This document shows, piece after piece, positions 1,175 through 7,263 of a stretch of DNA of 28,152 bases. Within the stretch, counting starts at the first letter, position 1. The number at the start of each line of letters is the position of its first letter. The notes under the pieces are model-generated. The model made no database searches. It saw only the letters and a program-made list of their open reading frames with translations, and was not told the DNA's origin. The stretch is taken from positions 1 through 28,152 of the IMG/VR virus record IMGVR_UViG_638341086_000001; one strand, written 5' to 3'. This stretch comes from a virus. Taxonomy: Duplodnaviria; Heunggongvirae; Uroviricota; Caudoviricetes. A program made the position numbers and the translations under genes.

Positions 1175-1501
1175 ATGACTAAAAATACTCGTTTTTCCCC
1201 TGAAGTCCGTCAACGGGCAGTCCGTATGGTTCTGGAAAGTCAGGGCGAATATGACTCACAATGGGCGACAATTTGTTCCATTGCTCCAAAGATTGGCTGT
1301 ACGCCGGAGACTCTGCGTGTCTGGGTTCGCCAGCATGAGCGGGATACCGGGGGCGGTGATGGAGGGCTCACCACCGCTGAACGTCAGCGTCTGAAAGAGC
1401 TGGAGCGTGAAAATCGTGAACTGCGCCGCAGTAACGATATCCTTCGCCAGGCTTCCGCTTATTTTGCGAAGGCGGAGTTCGACCGCCTCTGGAAAAAATA
1501 A
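1175..1501 (+). CDS. IS629 OrfA (HTH transposase N-terminal protein)
   Basis: 108-aa [57 protein letters not shown]... with leucine-zipper-like C-terminus; RBS GAGGTAAACAGG upstream. Confidence 0.9.
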
Positions 1502-2388
1502 TGCCACTGCTGGATAAGCTGCGTGAGCAGTGCGGGGTCGGACCGGTATGCAGTGAACTGCATATTGCCCCGTCAACGTATTACCACTGTCAGCAACAGC
1601 GACATCATCCGGATAAACGCAGTGCCCGTGCGCAGCGCGATGACTGGCTGAAGAAAGAGATACAGCGCGTATACGATGAAAATCACAAGGTATACGGTGT
1701 GCGTAAAGTCTGGCGTCAGTTGTTACGGGAAGGTATCAGAGTGGCCAGATGCACTGTGGCACGTCTCATGGCGGTTATGGGACTTGCCGGTGTTCTCCGG
1801 GGTAAAAAGGTCCGTACGACCATCAGCCGGAAAGCCGTTGCCGCAGGCGACCGCGTAAACCGTCAGTTCGTGGCAGAACGACCTGACCAGCTGTGGGTGG
1901 CTGATTTTACTTACGTCAGCACATGGCAGGGCTTCGTCTATGTGGCGTTCATCATTGATGTGTTTGCCGGATACATTGTGGGGTGGCGGGTCTCATCGTC
2001 CATGGAGACGACATTCGTGCTGGATGCACTGGAGCAGGCGTTATGGGCCCGTCGACCGTCCGGCACGGTCCATCACAGTGATAAAGGTTCTCAGTATGTA
2101 TCGCTGGCCTACACACAGCGGCTTAAGGAAGCCGGATTACTGGCATCAACAGGAAGTACAGGCGACTCGTATGACAACGCGATGGCGGAGAGCATCAATG
2201 GTCTTTACAAAGCGGAGGTAATACACCGTAAGAGCTGGAAAAACCGTGCAGAAGTGGAACTGGCCACACTCACGTGGGTGGACTGGTATAACAATCGACG
2301 ATTGCTGGAAAGGCTGGGCCATACTCCTCCGGCAGAAGCAGAAAAAGCTTATTATGCTTCCATCGGAAACGATGATCTGGCAGCCTGA
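1501..2388 (+). CDS. IS629 OrfB (DDE transposase catalytic subunit)
   Basis: 295-aa ORF in -1 frame relative to OrfA; integrase-core DDE region ...WVADFTYVSTWQGFVYVAFIIDVFAGYIVGW...HHSDKGSQYVS...DNAMAESINGLYKAE... Confidence 0.9.
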   Translation: MPLLDKLREQCGVGPVCSELHIAPSTYYHCQQQRHHPDKRSARAQRDDWLKKEIQRVYDENHKVYGVRKVWRQLLREGIRVARCTVARLMAVMGLAGVLRGKKVRTTISRKAVAAGDRVNRQFVAERPDQLWVADFTYVSTWQGFVYVAFIIDVFAGYIVGWRVSSSMETTFVLDALEQALWARRPSGTVHHSDKGSQYVSLAYTQRLKEAGLLASTGSTGDSYDNAMAESINGLYKAEVIHRKSWKNRAEVELATLTWVDWYNNRRLLERLGHTPPAEAEKAYYASIGNDDLAA

Positions 2389-2430
2389 GTTCACAGATAA
2401 AATACTCTCCAGGAAACCCGGGGCGGTTCA

Positions 2431-3960: not shown

Positions 3961-4788
3961 TTACTTAACCTGAATAAATGGTGTGTTGGCACCGCTGGTC
4001 ATGTATTGCGGCAGTGTACCGTTCCACTTGTTGATGGCTTCCAGCTCCATAACACCGGGGTTCTGGCGCAGAGCTTCACCGCGTAAACGAATAGCATCGG
4101 CTTCGGCCTGGGCTTTTGTGCGAATCGCATCTGCCTGTCCGGCAGCTTCCGCGCGCAACATGTTGGCTTCCGCTTCGCGCTGTTTTACTTCCTGCTCGCG
4201 TTGCAGGGTTTTCTGGTTCGCCGTGACTTTGGCATTAATGCTGTCGATAACAGTAGGCGGGTACTCCGGCTTACCCACATATGAGAGGCTCATTACCTGA
4301 ATACCGATGGGCGTCATTTCTTCCTGAATGTCTTTAAGAGCTGCATCCAGCAGCTCAGACTTGCCGCCGTCGATAAATTTGTCGGTGGTCATTTTGCTGG
4401 CCAGTCGGTTGAGTGCGTCGGCTATCTTCTGGCGCAGGTCGGTGTCGGTAATGTCGTCCACGCCTTTGCGGTAGGTCTGAAAGACTGTGGTAACTTTGGA
4501 TGGATCAACTTTGTAGGCCACGCCGATGTGATAGCCGATGGTTGTACCGTCACTCATCTGGAAACTGAATGGATCATCGTAGGTCTTCATCTGCTTAAAG
4601 GTCGGGAAGATGTAAACCTCAGTGTTCCATCCCGTCCAGTAGCGCCCAACACCGACCACTTCACCGACGCCTTTATCGTCGCCCAGTTTGTTTACTTTGA
4701 TGCCCACATTACCAGGCTCAACGCGATCGCAACCGACAAGGCCAATGGTCGGCAGAACAAGGGCTAAAGCAAAAAGTAATTTTTTCAT
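3961..4788 (-). CDS. SPFH/band-7 (prohibitin-like) domain lipoprotein
   Basis: 275 aa; N-terminal signal with lipobox LVGC (MKKLLFALALVLPTIGLVGC); central SPFH-like region and C-terminal coiled coil (QREQEVKQREAEANMLRAEAAGQADAIRTKAQAEADAIRLRGEAL); start overlaps the upstream small gene's stop (ATGA). Confidence 0.75.
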   Translation of the reverse strand: MKKLLFALALVLPTIGLVGCDRVEPGNVGIKVNKLGDDKGVGEVVGVGRYWTGWNTEVYIFPTFKQMKTYDDPFSFQMSDGTTIGYHIGVAYKVDPSKVTTVFQTYRKGVDDITDTDLRQKIADALNRLASKMTTDKFIDGGKSELLDAALKDIQEEMTPIGIQVMSLSYVGKPEYPPTVIDSINAKVTANQKTLQREQEVKQREAEANMLRAEAAGQADAIRTKAQAEADAIRLRGEALRQNPGVMELEAINKWNGTLPQYMTSGANTPFIQVK

Positions 4789-4973
4789 CTTTTATCCTTA
4801 GAAAAAGAAAGACCCTTATAAATGGCATAAATGCAGGGCGGGGTCAGACACGCCAGAGCAAAGCCAGAAATCACTGCTACCGTATCCTTCATTGATATGA
4901 GGGCCGGAACGATTAATCCGTAAATACATGTGATAATTGCCAGTGATATAACTATTCTGAAATAAATGTTCAT
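4785..4973 (-). CDS. Small two-helix membrane protein, partner of the SPFH lipoprotein
   Basis: 62 aa, MNIYFRIVISLAIITCIYGLIVPALISMKDTVAVISGFALACLTPPCIYAIYKGLSFSKDKR; RBS CAGGAGG 4 nt before ATG; translationally coupled to the SPFH gene. Confidence 0.5.
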   Translation of the reverse strand: MNIYFRIVISLAIITCIYGLIVPALISMKDTVAVISGFALACLTPPCIYAIYKGLSFSKDKR

Positions 4974-5033
4974 GGTCCTCCTGATGTATTCGGCTTGCCT
5001 TATTTAATTGCGTCATGGTTAATTTCGTTTACG

Positions 5034-5426
5034 TCAGAATGGTTTTGTTGCCATCAGTTCGTAATATCCGGCGCTCCATGTGTCATATTTTCTGAACCAT
5101 TTTTCTGTATACTGTTTCCTGGCGATGAGTCTGCGCAGTCGTCTGATTGTTCGCTGGTGTGCGCGGGTATACTCTGTGGTTGATTCTCCACGTTTCCATA
5201 TCTCATTCCTGTTGAAGATAAAACGCTTGTCAGGATAGCGTTGTCGGAATCCTGAACGTTCAAAAGCGCGGGTGGTCATAAAGAATGCCAGGTAACGAAT
5301 TGCCGTTTTTCGGGTGAGGCATTTTTTTGTTCTTCCGTGGCGTGTTACAAAAAATAACGGGCCGACGGGTGTATCATGTTTCTGTAATGCCTGGTCAATG
5401 GTGCTGGCGGTGCGGTTGTCGATCAT
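5034..5426 (-). CDS. Hypothetical basic protein (130 aa)
   Basis: ATG 5426-5424 preceded by GGAGA and overlapping an upstream stop (ATGA); MIDNRTASTIDQALQKHDTPVGPLFFVTRHGRTKKCLTRKTAIRYLAFF...; R/K-rich, no family recognised. Confidence 0.5.
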   Translation of the reverse strand: MIDNRTASTIDQALQKHDTPVGPLFFVTRHGRTKKCLTRKTAIRYLAFFMTTRAFERSGFRQRYPDKRFIFNRNEIWKRGESTTEYTRAHQRTIRRLRRLIARKQYTEKWFRKYDTWSAGYYELMATKPF

Positions 5427-5612
5427 TTCTTTATTTCTCCCGAATAACGTTCATGACTCATTACTTCCCAGTTCCGGCCGTCGTCTTTCGATAACAGCCG
5501 CCAGCGACGGTTAACCTTCAGACTGAGATATCCGGTGCGCTGTATCCGATGCGGAAATATCCGTCGGCATCGGTACAACAACAGGACCTGCAATGCCTGC
5601 CGGTGGATCCGC

Positions 5613-5828
5613 TCAGGAATGCGTGTTGCTGTTAATGCCACCGGTTTCCTCCTGAGCAGGTGCTGTTATCTGATACCCCGCTCTTTCTGCCAGCCGTATG
5701 AATGTATCCATGCTGGCAATCAGCTCGCCATCGCGGACTTTGCAGACACCTGTGACTTGGCCATTTTCAATTGTCATAACGATCTGCACTTTTTCGTGCA
5801 CAACAGATACAGGGGATAAATTAGCCAT
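5613..5828 (-). CDS. Hypothetical protein (71 aa)
   Basis: ATG overlaps the upstream stop (TGATG); GGAGG RBS 8 nt upstream; MANLSPVSVVHEKVQIVMTIENGQVTGVCKVRDGELIASMDTFIRLAERAGYQ... Confidence 0.45.
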   Translation of the reverse strand: MANLSPVSVVHEKVQIVMTIENGQVTGVCKVRDGELIASMDTFIRLAERAGYQITAPAQEETGGINSNTHS

Positions 5829-6187
5829 CAGTTAATTCCTCCGCTGATATATTTTTCTTTCGCGTAATCAATAACCTCTTGAAAAAGGTTGTCTATAATT
5901 AACTTTCCGGTTTCAGTCAGGTATTCAGTATGTTGATTAATCCCGATAGCATTCTGGTATGCAGTGTGGATTTCGGTTTCACCCTCCACCCGGCCCAATT
6001 CACCACGGGTAATACCTTCGAAGCGTAACAGCAACTGGTTTATAAACTGTTCAGTTATTTCTATGGTCGTAATGTTCCCATCCGGAAGGTCAACAATAAG
6101 CAGATTACCACCTGTTTTACGTTTTATTCGATGGAGTGCCGCAACAGCTATACGGCGACGATATGTATTAATGGGTTCATGTGTCAT
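5828..6187 (-). CDS. Hypothetical protein (119 aa) with arginine-rich N-terminus
   Basis: MTHEPINTYRRRIAVAALHRIKRKTGGNLLIVDLPDG...; first gene after a ~185-bp gap; no family recognised. Confidence 0.5.
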   Translation of the reverse strand: MTHEPINTYRRRIAVAALHRIKRKTGGNLLIVDLPDGNITTIEITEQFINQLLLRFEGITRGELGRVEGETEIHTAYQNAIGINQHTEYLTETGKLIIDNLFQEVIDYAKEKYISGGIN

Positions 6188-6372
6188 TTGTTATTTCCCG
6201 TATGCTTTCCCTGAGAAACAGTATTGCAACTGACCAGTATCCTGCATTAGCCATTAATAATGCGGTTTTATAAGCACTTCTGTTTTTCATGCATCACCAC
6301 CATTTTCAGGTTGTGGAAATTCCCGACCAGAGACCGTTATGTTTTTATGGGGGATTGTTTATTGAGTTTTCT

Positions 6373-6564
6373 TTATTCGTTGCGCAGTGTGTCGATATAC
6401 GCGTAAGCCATTTCACAGGTTTTATTCATGGAGCGAATGAGGCAACATAAATAATCGTCTGTCTCTCCTGAGTCGGGCGAATTCTTAAATATAAATTCAA
6501 GCATTGATGTATTCTTTTTTATTTGTGCTGCCACTTCCTCAAGAATATTTAATGGAGTTTTCAT
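6373..6564 (-). CDS. Small acidic protein (63 aa), third gene of the cI-adjacent cassette
   Basis: MKTPLNILEEVAAQIKKNTSMLEFIFKNSPDSGETDDYLCCLIRSMNKTCEMAYAYIDTLRNE; start overlaps the previous gene's stop (ATGA); AT-rich by eye. Confidence 0.5.
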   Translation of the reverse strand: MKTPLNILEEVAAQIKKNTSMLEFIFKNSPDSGETDDYLCCLIRSMNKTCEMAYAYIDTLRNE

Positions 6565-6752
6565 GTTCTTTGCTCCTTAAATGCATCGCATGCGCTTCTG
6601 GCGTATTGTTGTGCCAGTAAAAAGATATCATCCGAAAGTTCATCACATTCTTCATCACCGGAAGCCGAAATGATTAACCCCGCTTCAAGCAGTACGGCAA
6701 TGTGATGAAAAGCTGTCTCCGGTTCGTTGGTAAGGCCTTTGAACATTTTCAT
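6561..6752 (-). CDS. Small acidic protein (63 aa), second gene of the cI-adjacent cassette
   Basis: ATG at 6752 with AGGAGG 9 nt upstream (the ORF track's 6785 start is a non-ATG extension); MKMFKGLTNEPETAFHHIAVLLEAGLIISASGDEECDELSDDIFLLAQQYARSACDAFKEQRT; shares an SG-acidic ... A..YA pattern with the downstream 63-aa protein. Confidence 0.5.
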   Translation of the reverse strand: MKMFKGLTNEPETAFHHIAVLLEAGLIISASGDEECDELSDDIFLLAQQYARSACDAFKEQRT

Positions 6753-6753
6753 C

Positions 6754-7173
6754 TTATGCTTCCTCCTGATTTTGTTTATAAGCATCAGTCAATAACAACA
6801 TTGGATCACAGCCAAGAACATTAGCCAGAGGGATAAGCATGCTGATGGTTGGTTCGTACTCTCCGCTCTCCCACTGGATGATAATTTCTTCATCGAGATC
6901 GAGCAGCCTAGCGAGTTCGGCGGTTGTTAAGCCGCAGGTTTCGCGTTGGGTGCGAATCCGATTCTGGGAATTAATAGCTAAATTTTGTTTGCATAAACGT
7001 GACGCGGTGAGGCTATATTTTTGAGTTACAGCCAGGATGGAGCTGGCAAGTTCAATTAACTCAGGGTTATTGCTGCTATACAGTAGTGCACCAGTCCCTA
7101 CTAAGAGCTGAATATTCTCAAGAGCATCGTGCTGATTTGTTGGTAATCCCATATACGATGACATTTTTCTCAT
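6754..7173 (-). CDS. DNA-binding protein with C-terminal XRE-type helix-turn-helix, first gene of the cassette
   Basis: ATG at 7173 or 7164 (the latter better spaced from AGAGGA). N-terminal ~65 aa unassigned; C-terminal half RIRTQRETCGLTTAELARLLDLDEEIIIQWESGEYEPTISMLIPLANVLGCDPMLL is a classic Cro/C1-type HTH. Confidence 0.6.
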   Translation of the reverse strand: MRKMSSYMGLPTNQHDALENIQLLVGTGALLYSSNNPELIELASSILAVTQKYSLTASRLCKQNLAINSQNRIRTQRETCGLTTAELARLLDLDEEIIIQWESGEYEPTISMLIPLANVLGCDPMLLLTDAYKQNQEEA

Positions 7174-7204
7174 CCTCTATAATTGCTTTGGTGAGTTCGA
7201 TACC

Positions 7205-7250
7205 TATGTCAAGATAATAGGTTTACCGATTTCACCTGTCAATCGGTTTA
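7205..7250 (-). promoter_or_regulatory. Leftward (pL-like) sigma70 promoter with overlapping inverted-repeat operator
   Basis: On the minus strand: -35 TTGACA (7242-7237), 17-nt spacer, -10 TATTAT (7219-7214); inverted repeat ACCGATT-N9-AATCGGT (7225-7247) overlaps the -35 and spacer. Confidence 0.45.
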
Positions 7251-7263
7251 TCGATTTTTTCCC

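What the first reader, a model, noticed from the sequence alone, without database searches (positions are those of the whole stretch)
6373..7250. Three-gene cassette beside cI: C-terminal-HTH protein plus two paralogous small acidic proteins behind an operator-bearing promoter
Seen: genes at 6754-7173, 6561-6752 and 6373-6564 (minus) are tightly coupled (TAA-N-ATG, then ATGA). They sit behind a near-consensus promoter TTGACA-17-TATTAT overlapped by the inverted repeat ACCGATT-N9-AATCGGT, and are insulated from cI by a terminator. Protein 1 has an XRE helix-turn-helix in its C-terminal half and an unassigned 65-aa N-terminus. Proteins 2 and 3 are acidic 63-aa proteins sharing an SG-[DE]-rich ... 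A..YA pattern, suggesting duplication. The cassette looks AT-richer than its neighbours by eye. Established: the cI-proximal slot of lambdoid phages typically carries exclusion or host-takeover morons (rexAB, sieB, ral). Inference: candidate uncharacterised exclusion, toxin-antitoxin-like or anti-defence module (small acidic proteins are typical of DNA mimics).
Basis: partly seen in the sequence, partly recalled or inferred. Interest (0 to 1): 0.7.

Follow-up and report, generated by a model that had tools for sequence, protein, structure and literature searches.

The report
Early phage regulator with domain-mimic partners
The three genes are the first genes of the prophage's repressor-controlled early-left operon. 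They encode an unusual acidic helix-turn-helix protein and two small proteins that are free-standing copies of the kind of N-terminal domain that protein carries. This is an unannotated, conserved module whose function is still unproven.

Summary
The anatomy is real: three tightly coupled minus-strand genes (6754-7164, 6561-6752, 6373-6564) lie behind a near-consensus promoter and downstream of the cI terminator.

Four details need correcting:
- Gene 1 starts at 7164, not 7173.
- The "inverted repeat" is the inner halves of two 14-bp operators (ATCGG-N4-CCGAT). The only other good copy in the window lies between cI and cro. The promoter is therefore the cI-controlled PL/OL equivalent, not an insulated moron promoter.
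- The cassette is not AT-richer than cI or its left neighbours.
- Proteins 2 and 3 are not detectably homologous to each other.

The new finding is that each small protein is homologous to an N-terminal domain ("X domain") of the gene-1 family. The X domain is a short N-terminal motif followed by two long helices, and it has no Pfam family.

Across 93 loci, the X type of the fused protein is tied 1:1 to the cI type. The number of helix-turn-helix domains and the set of free X proteins assort freely.

The helix-turn-helix domain is acidic (net -8), so classical DNA binding is doubtful.

Best reading, at moderate confidence: an early regulatory module in which free X proteins associate with the X-HTH protein, in the manner of SinI/SinR or AimX/AimC. 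I found no evidence for defence, toxin-antitoxin or DNA-mimic functions.

The parts
7264..7290 (-). Intrinsic terminator that ends the cI transcript (7-bp GC-rich stem, 4-nt loop, T9).
   Evidence: -13.9 kcal/mol, z=-1.95.
7242..7255 (.). Operator OL-a (ATCGATAAACCGAT on the minus strand). It abuts the -35 hexamer.
   Evidence: One mismatch to ATCGG-N4-CCGAT. Conserved in L005, which has the same cI type; L101 and L102, whose cI is 64-66% identical, also carry this motif at the promoter.
7217..7230 (.). Operator OL-b (ATCGGTAAACCTAT on the minus strand). It covers the spacer and three bases of the -10 hexamer. It lies 25 bp centre-to-centre from OL-a.
   Evidence: (direct repeat D1, spacing 25).
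7214..7242 (-). PL-equivalent sigma-70 promoter, TTGACA-17-TATTAT.
   Evidence: 11 of 12 consensus positions.
6754..7164 (-). Gene 1, 136 aa: X domain followed by one acidic XRE helix-turn-helix (net charge -9, pI 4.4).
6985..7164 (-). X domain of gene 1, type A, residues 1-60. It has a short N-terminal motif, helix 11-29, a loop, and a helix starting at residue 34.
   Evidence: AF2 model. Homology to gene 2 at E=2e-6, by hhalign at 3e-5 and by PHROG 4587 at 4e-6. The mosaic breakpoint with phi467 falls at about residue 69, window position 6957.
6781..6963 (-). XRE helix-turn-helix domain of gene 1, nearly invariant across immunity types. The domain segment as measured (residues 66-136, 70 aa) has net charge -8. 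The positions at the start of the recognition helix are D-E-E.
6561..6752 (-). Gene 2, 63 aa: a free-standing X domain of the A/B clan (PHROG 4587).
   Evidence: 40% identity to the type-B N-domain of P0039, E=3e-9. AF2 pLDDT 94 with the same helix register as the gene 1 N-domain. Family profile search.
6373..6564 (-). Gene 3, 63 aa: a free-standing hairpin protein of the G clan (PHROG 6882).
   Evidence: 33% identity over 64 aa to the type-G N-domain of P0094, E=2e-10. hhalign E=1e-8. dN/dS 0.07-0.10.
8037..8050 (.). Perfect operator palindrome ATCGGCTTTCCGAT in the cI-cro intergenic region (the OR side).
7309..8001 (-). cI repressor (HTH plus S24 autopeptidase). Its type is tied 1:1 to the X type of gene 1.
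8121..8408 (+). Cro-position gene of the YdaS family.

Best explanation
The cassette is the head of the cI-repressed early-left (PL-type) operon of a lambdoid prophage. On this reading it is silent in the lysogen and made immediately on induction or infection.

Gene 1 is a modular protein. An N-terminal protein-interaction domain (X: a short N-terminal motif plus two long helices) is joined to a conserved, unusually acidic XRE helix-turn-helix. Genes 2 and 3 are X-type domains without the helix-turn-helix.

The most likely mechanism is that the free hairpin proteins act through X-X type association with X-HTH proteins. They would form mixed helical bundles that set or block the oligomeric state and activity of the regulator. 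This is the logic of SinI/SinR and AimX/AimC.

Shown:
- the gene structure;
- the homology between the free and fused domains;
- purifying selection on the small genes;
- the conserved position of the module across phages.

Inferred from sequence:
- that cI binds the operators at this promoter, and hence the early, cI-repressed timing;
- that X is an interaction domain;
- that free and fused X domains bind each other;
- the regulatory consequence of that binding.
For: PL/OL assignment
- The only three sites in the window with at most one mismatch to ATCGG-N4-CCGAT are two at this promoter and one between cI and cro.
- In other immunity types (phi467/L002, L008, L011, plus L101 and L102), the motif at this promoter changes together with the motif between cI and cro. 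The HTH of gene 1 stays invariant across those types.

Domain mimicry
- Gene 2 matches the type-B N-domain at E=3e-9.
- Gene 2 matches gene 1's own N-domain over 60 colinear residues at E=2e-6, by hhalign at 3e-5 and by PHROG 4587 on gene 1 residues 3-58.
- Gene 3 matches the type-G N-domain at E=2e-10.
- A 66-aa protein in other prophages matches the type-C N-domain at E=3e-8.
- AF2 predicts the same register for both (strand-like residues at 3-4 and 7-8, helix 11-29, helix from 34). pLDDT is 94 for gene 2 and about 90 in the N-domain of gene 1.

Conserved architecture
- In 92 of 93 loci, X-domain ORFs follow the X-HTH gene directly. The exception, L050, ends at the contig edge.
- Distant members found by profile search keep the order cro, cI, X-HTH, then small helical ORFs.

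Other support
- The small ORFs are under purifying selection.
- Ten of 19 positions in helix 1 are conserved hydrophobic, including triplets at 20-22 and 26-28. This suggests a buried interaction surface.
- Published precedents exist: SinI mimics the SinR oligomerisation domain (PMC3163267, listed), and AimX does the same for AimC (bioRxiv 10.1101/2025.11.23.689978).
Against: - No complex could be predicted or measured.
- The X type of the regulator and the type of free X protein assort independently. A cognate antagonist pair would be expected to co-vary. Gene 3 (G clan) has no detectable similarity to the type-A domain of its own neighbour.
- The three genes are co-transcribed and translationally coupled. 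The ratio of products is therefore fixed, unlike SinI or AimX, which are regulated separately. This fits fixed subunits of one complex better than a switchable antagonist.
- The N-terminal motif (F4, L7, L9) could cover helix 1 within the same molecule, and the monomer model is confident (pTM 0.79). The hydrophobicity argument is therefore weak.
- The acidic HTH leaves open what the 'regulator' regulates. No DNA target was found.
Confidence: 0.4

Rival explanations
1. Immunity-specific partner binding. The X domain binds a protein encoded in the immunity region, either the cognate cI or Cro. Gene 1 would then be an immediate-early antirepressor or switch modulator. The free X proteins would act on repressors or Cro proteins of other immunity types. 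The outcome resembles TF-smORF modules or the trans-acting Gifsy antirepressors.
For: - cI type and X type pair strictly 1:1 in 93 loci, while everything downstream of the X/HTH junction is shuffled.
- cI proteins 64-66% identical to the window's again come with A-like X domains, even where the HTH part has been replaced (L101, L102).
- X and the whole protein are acidic, so a protein target is more plausible than DNA.
- Small proteins that inactivate cI are documented (PMC10432266; PMC3121763, listed).
Against: - The linkage may be trivial. cI, the PL region and X share no homology between types, so recombination cannot separate them.
- cI_G is 50% identical to cI_A, yet it is paired with an unrelated X clan.
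- X domains show no similarity to any cI or Cro.
- No interaction data exist.
Confidence: 0.2
2. Protease-decoy logic, as in lambda CII/CIII. Gene 1 would be an unstable early regulator recognised by a host protease through its X domain or N-terminal motif. The free X proteins would be competing substrates that stabilise it.
For: - PHROG 4836 is labelled 'CII-like regulator'.
- No cII-like gene was recognised after cro.
- The N-terminal motif M-K-x-F-K-G-L-S-L is conserved in both fused and free forms.
- Lambda cIII also lies in the PL operon (established knowledge).
Against: - There is no homology to CII or CIII.
- The HTH is acidic and no CII-type target repeats were found.
- The PHROG label is an annotation, not a test.
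- Nothing links X to any protease.
Confidence: 0.08
3. The cassette is an exclusion, toxin-antitoxin-like or anti-defence module, with the small acidic proteins acting as DNA mimics or inhibitors of host defences.
For: - All three products are acidic.
- Early-left operons of lambdoid phages do carry anti-restriction and host-takeover genes (established knowledge).
- The free hairpin genes occur as variable tandem arrays of one to four, which resembles accessory or anti-defence regions.
Against: - PADLOC, Pfam and NCBIfam give no defence, anti-defence or toxin match for genes 2 and 3.
- The small proteins are homologous to a domain of the adjacent HTH protein, which points to a shared partner or mutual binding.
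- The module is fixed at the cI boundary in every relative. That is typical of switch components rather than cargo.
- The fold is a generic hairpin.
Confidence: 0.1
4. The small ORFs are decaying 5' remnants of former regulator genes left behind by recombination, and have no function of their own.
For: - They are homologous to N-terminal domains of allelic regulators.
- Recombination at the conserved HTH is frequent.
Against: - Purifying selection is strong: dN/dS 0.07-0.10 at dS of about 1 for gene 3, and about 0.19 for the 66-aa family.
- Start codons, Shine-Dalgarno sequences and overlapping stop/start junctions are intact.
- Free 63-aa forms are widespread and diverse.
Confidence: 0.03

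Closest known systems
SinR-SinI of Bacillus subtilis (PMC3163267)
   Same: An XRE-type HTH protein with a two-helix multimerisation domain. An adjacent gene encodes a small all-helical protein homologous to that domain. The small protein forms a heterocomplex with the regulator.
   Different: - Here the helical domain is N-terminal rather than C-terminal.
- There is no sequence relationship; Pfam SinI (PF08671) was not matched.
- There are one to four free domains instead of one.
- The free domains are co-transcribed and translationally coupled to the regulator, not separately controlled.
- The HTH is acidic.
- The setting is a phage PL operon.
- Binding has not been shown.
AimC-AimX of arbitrium phages (bioRxiv 10.1101/2025.11.23.689978)
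   Same: A phage lysis-lysogeny module in which a small helical protein blocks oligomerisation of an XRE repressor. The authors compare this to SinI/SinR.
   Different: - AimX targets the phage master repressor and is controlled by AimR/AimP.
- Here the partner would be an early protein, not cI.
- No signalling component is present.
- There is no homology.
Lambda PL/OL and its first early genes (N, ral, cIII); established knowledge
   Same: The order is cI, terminator, operator-covered leftward promoter, then early genes. Operators are shared with the cI-cro region. The 25-bp spacing of the two operators is close to the 24 bp of lambda OL1-OL2.
   Different: No N, ral or cIII homologue is present. 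The first gene is an X-HTH protein, and its N-terminal half belongs to the non-homologous immunity segment.
TF-smORF induction modules of linear plasmid-like phages (Silpe et al. 2023, PMC10432266)
   Same: A transcription-factor gene lies next to a gene for a small protein that controls the phage switch. The modules are sequence-diverse but share one logic.
   Different: - Those modules lie between repA and telN.
- There the transcription factor activates the smORF promoter independently of SOS, and the small protein inactivates cI.
- Here the genes form one cI-repressed operon.
- Here the small proteins are homologous to a domain of the HTH protein.
Lambda CII-CIII (established knowledge); PHROG 4836 is labelled 'CII-like regulator'
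   Same: An early HTH protein together with a small helical early protein from the PL operon.
   Different: - No homology.
- Different position: cII lies in the PR operon.
- Acidic rather than basic.
- No protease link has been shown.

Membership tests
Lambdoid PL/OL early-left promoter | A leftward sigma-70 promoter directly downstream of the cI terminator, overlapped by operators. | tested here: met
   The 14-mers overlap the edge of the -35 hexamer and the spacer/-10 region.
Lambdoid PL/OL early-left promoter | The operators share their motif with the cI-cro region and change with immunity type. | tested here: met
   This holds for the ATCGG-N4-CCGAT, ATCAAGT, ATAG-N6-CTAT and GTATCAA types.
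Lambdoid PL/OL early-left promoter | Repression by cI, demonstrated by binding or expression. | not testable with these tools
   Needs EMSA, a reporter assay or RNA-seq.
SinR/SinI | The regulator has an XRE helix-turn-helix. | tested here: met
   Pfam HTH_3, E=2e-10. Foldseek matches P22 c2 and 434-type domains.
SinR/SinI | A SinI-type helical-hook domain (Pfam PF08671), C-terminal to the HTH. | tested here: not met
   No PF08671 match for genes 1-3 at E<=0.1. The helical domain is N-terminal.
SinR/SinI | An adjacent small protein is homologous to the regulator's non-HTH domain. | tested here: met
SinR/SinI | A heterocomplex forms that abolishes the regulator's activity. | not testable with these tools
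No experiments are available.
Lambda CII | Sequence homology, and a position downstream of cro in the PR operon. | tested here: not met
   Only generic HTH matches. The gene lies in the leftward operon.
Type II toxin-antitoxin with an XRE antitoxin | An adjacent gene belongs to a toxin family. | tested here: not met
   Genes 2 and 3 have no Pfam, NCBIfam or PADLOC match. Both are acidic 63-aa helical hairpins.
DNA-mimic anti-restriction proteins (Ocr, ArdA type) | A strongly acidic surface that imitates DNA, with homology or fold similarity to known mimics. | tested here: inconclusive
TF-smORF induction module | Location between repA and telN, with the smORF promoter activated by the transcription factor. 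| tested here: not met
   Single operon behind PL in an integrated lambdoid prophage.
TF-smORF induction module | The small protein inactivates cI. | not testable with these tools
   Needs reporter or binding assays.

The most novel reading that the evidence does not exclude
The free hairpin proteins are dominant-negative weapons between prophages. Each mimics the N-terminal domain of the early X-HTH protein of a different immunity type: gene 2 the A/B types, gene 3 the G type, and the 66-aa protein the C type. An induced or infecting phage would thereby poison the early regulators of co-resident or competing lambdoid phages. Regulators would escape by diversifying their X domain. This would explain three features: the hypervariable X domain next to a nearly invariant HTH, the tandem arrays of unlike free X genes, and the absence of co-variation with the phage's own regulator.
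Probability: 0.12. Interest if true: 0.85.

Novelty: new variant of a known kind. Interest (0 to 1): 0.6.

Why it matters
If the reading is right, a widespread group of E. coli, Shigella and Salmonella lambdoid prophages carries an undescribed third component of the genetic switch beside cI and Cro. The conserved part of the module matches 357 of 5,426 complete E. coli genomes, and the group includes Stx-phage relatives. The component is built on an unannotated protein domain that occurs both fused to helix-turn-helix domains and free.

It would extend the "small protein mimics the regulator's interaction domain" principle (SinI, AimX) to Gram-negative lambdoid phages. It also offers a testable route to understanding induction behaviour and cross-talk in polylysogens that carry virulence prophages.

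At minimum it defines a new domain family and corrects "hypothetical protein" annotations.

Tried and rejected
- Pfam, NCBIfam, PADLOC and PDB sequence searches of genes 2 and 3 found nothing.
- A sub-threshold DUF1327 hit appeared on one relative only and did not generalise.
- Direct paralogy of genes 2 and 3 was rejected.
- An RHH-like DNA-binding reading of the X domain (strand plus two helices) was considered. I rejected it because the domains are acidic and the helices are long.
- A gene-fission origin, suggested by 153-aa 'HTH-only' homologues, was rejected. In L100 the gene is intact and the annotation simply used an internal start.
- X as a mimic of cI or Cro: no similarity.
- A search for a conserved DNA target of the HTH found only a conserved non-palindromic stretch downstream of the small genes.
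- Rfam found no RNA family in 4500-9500.
- A test for co-residence of gene 3 with type-G regulators had no power, because type G occurs in only 20 genomes.
- Literature searches for the protein accessions, the PHROG ids and phiP27 early genes returned nothing relevant.
Full report
**Where the window comes from.** The region is 100% identical to a prophage in the E. coli E110019 chromosome. PGAP annotates the three genes there as a helix-turn-helix protein and two hypothetical proteins. The prophage is defective: the portal, large terminase, Q and TerB genes are pseudogenes and an IS3 element is inserted.

**Local layout.**
- cro-position gene (YdaS family): 8121-8408, plus strand.
- cI (HTH plus S24 peptidase): 7309-8001, minus strand.
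- Intrinsic terminator: 7273-7290.
- Promoter: 7242..7214.
- Three minus-strand genes, followed by further leftward genes running to the integrase.

**Checking the observation.**
- The junctions (TAA-G-ATG, then ATGA), the ribosome-binding sites, the promoter (11 of 12 consensus positions, the best of four promoter-like sites in 4.2 kb) and the terminator are all as described.
- Gene 1 starts at 7164, giving 136 aa. This is the start used by PGAP and by all homologues, and it is the ATG with a properly spaced GAGGA.
- The cassette's GC content (0.39-0.46) is no lower than that of cI (0.39-0.43) or the genes to its left (0.40-0.41).
- Proteins 2 and 3 show no detectable similarity to each other (BLASTP E=4.9; hhalign E=0.45).

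**The promoter is the phage's early-left promoter.**
- Each 14-mer is one mismatch from ATCGG-N4-CCGAT. The only other site in 28 kb with at most one mismatch is a perfect palindrome at 8037-8050, between cI and cro.
- Three such sites are only mildly unusual by count alone (9 of 100 shuffles reach three). The argument rests on their placement and on comparison with other phages.
- In prophages of other immunity types, the promoter upstream of the gene 1 homologue carries a different motif, and that motif matches the one in that phage's own cI-cro region. Examples are ATCAAGT half-sites in phi467 and L002, ATAG-N6-CTAT in L008 and GTATCAA/TTGATAC in L011.
- Two distant phages whose cI is 64-66% identical to the window's again carry ATCGG-N4-CCGAT at this promoter.
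- The helix-turn-helix of gene 1 is nearly invariant across these types. The operators are therefore read by cI, not by protein 1.
- The arrangement cI, terminator, OL/PL, early genes is the standard lambdoid one. The cassette sits where lambda has N, ral and cIII, not where it has rexAB.
- cI binding itself is inferred, not shown.

**What the proteins are.**
- Gene 1 homologues (155 found) consist of an N-terminal segment of about 60-90 residues followed by one or two XRE helix-turn-helix domains.
- The N-terminal segment comes in at least eight types that barely align with each other. I call them A to H.
- The HTH region is nearly invariant in protein sequence across the family. Several phage records match only this part of the region, at 89-92% DNA identity.
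- The match to phage phi467 breaks at window position 6957, about residue 69 of gene 1. That is exactly the junction between the two domains.

**The central finding.** The small proteins are free-standing versions of these N-terminal domains.

| Free protein | Fused domain matched | Result |
|---|---|---|
| Protein 2 | Type B (P0039) | 40% identity over 48 aa, E=3e-9 |
| Protein 2 | Gene 1's own type A | 27% over 60 colinear residues, E=2e-6 in a 27-sequence database |
| Protein 2 | Type A family | hhalign E=3e-5 |
| Protein 2 family (PHROG 4587) | Gene 1 residues 3-58 | E=4e-6 |
| Protein 3 | Type G (P0094) | 33% over 64 aa, E=2e-10; hhalign E=1e-8 |
| 66-aa protein, and C-terminal half of a 121-aa protein, in other prophages | Type C | E=3e-8 to 4e-10 |

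**Structure predictions.**
- AF2 models give the same register for both proteins: two short strand-like segments at residues 3-4 and 7-8, helix 11-29, a four-residue loop, and a long helix from residue 34.
- For protein 2 the model has pLDDT 94 and pTM 0.79. For the gene 1 N-domain, pLDDT is about 90.

**A wider, unannotated family.**
- A profile search of 1.84 billion representative proteins returned 45 members.
- The consensus is MKxFKGLSLxPxDAFxNIAxxIEAGxLxxxxxxxExxELGDxIxxxAxxYAxAA.
- Members are either free (63-72 aa), or fused N-terminally to one, two or three XRE domains, or, in P0160, fused to a domain 48% identical to the window cI's own DNA-binding domain.
- No Pfam family covers this domain.

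**Comparative architecture (93 loci).**
- The X type of the fused protein is tied 1:1 to the cI type: D with cI1 (33 loci), A with cI2 (25), C with cI3 (20), B with cI4 (12), F with cI5 (2).
- The number of HTH domains and the downstream small-protein set assort freely with every type. The set is either genes 2+3 (27 loci) or a 66-aa or 121-aa protein (65 loci).
- X-domain matches occur only in the regulator and in the ORFs directly downstream of it.
- Distant members keep the order cro, cI, X-HTH, then one to four small helical ORFs.
- The small genes are under purifying selection. For gene 3, dN/dS is 0.07-0.10 at dS of about 1. For the 66-aa family it is about 0.19. Gene 2 has too few changes for a firm value, but they are almost all synonymous.
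- The gene 2+3 pair occurs in 72 of 5,426 complete E. coli genomes. A 2.1-kb query spanning the cassette, cI and cro matched 357 genomes; outside the few full-length matches, the hits are to the conserved part around cI and the helix-turn-helix region.

**An unexpected property of the 'regulator'.**
- Gene 1 protein has net charge -9 (pI 4.4). Its HTH domain alone is -8.
- Aligned to P22 c2, its best structural match, the first positions of the recognition helix read D-E-E where c2 has S-N-V.
- HTH domains across the family range from -10 to +1. By comparison, 434 Cro, P22 c2, 434 cI, SinR, lambda cI and the window's own cI range from +1 to +9.
- Classical operator binding by this domain is therefore doubtful, and I found no candidate DNA target.

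**Mechanism.**
- The combination of an XRE-type protein with a helical non-HTH domain and adjacent small proteins homologous to that domain is the signature of SinR/SinI (PMC3163267) and of AimC/AimX in arbitrium phages.
- I therefore rank X-X association of the free hairpins with the X-HTH protein as most likely, at about 0.4.
- Three observations weaken this:
  1. Free and fused types do not co-vary.
  2. Gene 3 belongs to a different clan from its neighbour's domain.
  3. Translational coupling fixes the stoichiometry, which suits subunits of one complex better than a regulated antagonist.
- The strict cI-X pairing keeps alive a rival in which X binds an immunity-specific partner, cI or Cro (about 0.2). 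That linkage could also simply reflect the absence of homology for recombination. In addition, cI_G, which is 50% identical to cI_A, carries an unrelated X.

**Comparison with known systems and novelty.**
- The module is not a member of the SinR/SinI family. There is no PF08671 match and the domain order is reversed.
- It is not lambda CII, not a known toxin-antitoxin type, and not a known defence or anti-defence family.
- It may work like SinI/SinR or AimX/AimC.
- I rate it a new variant of a known kind. It is built on an unannotated domain family and occupies a fixed place in the immunity region of many enterobacterial prophages.
- Interest is moderate to high (0.6), because the function remains inferred.

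Noticed in passing
window 5423-5641 (-) and 5613-5828 (-): A 72-aa ORF with a clear ParE-like toxin domain (PF24732, E=3e-17; PGAP: ParE family toxin-like protein) overlaps by 29 nt the end of a 71-aa ORF (PHROG 340). This may be a toxin-antitoxin pair inside the same early-left operon, about 750 bp downstream of the finding. The pair recurs in related prophages such as L002.
   Followed up: partly
window 6180-6293 (-); also L002 4982-5095 and L095 5725-5832: A conserved 35-38-aa basic ORF (MKNRSAYKTALLMANAGYWSVAILFLRESIREITNDT here) follows the small hairpin genes in nearly all related loci, whichever small-protein set is present. It is preceded by a conserved non-palindromic stretch (TATTACGGTTTnATCGCCGGGGATT-like). 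There is no family match and its function is unknown.
   Followed up: partly
window 6757-6969 (HTH of gene 1) and homologues P0039, P0069, P0147, P0151: The XRE helix-turn-helix domains of this family are acidic (net -10 to +1), with D-E-E at the start of the recognition helix in HTH1. This is unlike DNA-binding XRE domains (+1 to +9). The best PDB sequence match is an MBF1-like protein (2mez).
   Followed up: partly
L101 3501-4019 (P0160): In a distant phage with a cI 65% identical to the window's, the first early-left gene joins an A-like X domain to an HTH that is 45-48% identical to cI's own DNA-binding domain (E about 1e-16). This is an X-tagged paralogue of the repressor's N-terminal domain.
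   Followed up: partly
L005 4648-5013, L011 4864-5229, P0146, P0147 residues about 175-190: The 121-aa proteins carry a second small conserved element, (T)AD(I/V)VI-G-x-(K/R)-(I/V)-VKNR, ahead of their X domain. The same motif sits between HTH1 and HTH2 of the three-HTH protein P0147. Their N-terminus (MNKFKGIT) repeats the N-terminal motif of the X domain.
   Followed up: no
L095 5005-6044: One relative carries four small helical ORFs (71, 64, 61 and 69 aa) downstream of the X-HTH gene, with a 35-aa ORF between the third and fourth. Only the first matched any X-domain profile; the other three look helical but gave no significant match. In the same locus, a 293-aa ORF with a weak BRCT match is inserted on the opposite strand between cI and the early-left promoter (L095 2962-3843). 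That ORF is a true moron-like insertion.
   Followed up: no
window 1176-2389, 12575-12971, 20425-22086, 24299-26721: The prophage is defective. An IS3-family element is inserted in the early-left region. The Q antiterminator is frameshifted, the large terminase has an internal stop, and the portal gene is frameshifted (PGAP annotation of E110019).
   Followed up: no
window 6753-6785 (-): An upstream in-frame ATG would extend gene 2 to 74 aa, overlapping the end of gene 1. It is absent in several relatives (L021, L035, L041, L047) and has no ribosome-binding site, so the 63-aa form is the real one.
   Followed up: yes
window 8371-8679 (+): A 102-aa ORF overlaps the end of the cro-position gene by 38 nt, in the place where a cII or YdaT-like gene might be expected. 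It has no family match.
   Followed up: partly
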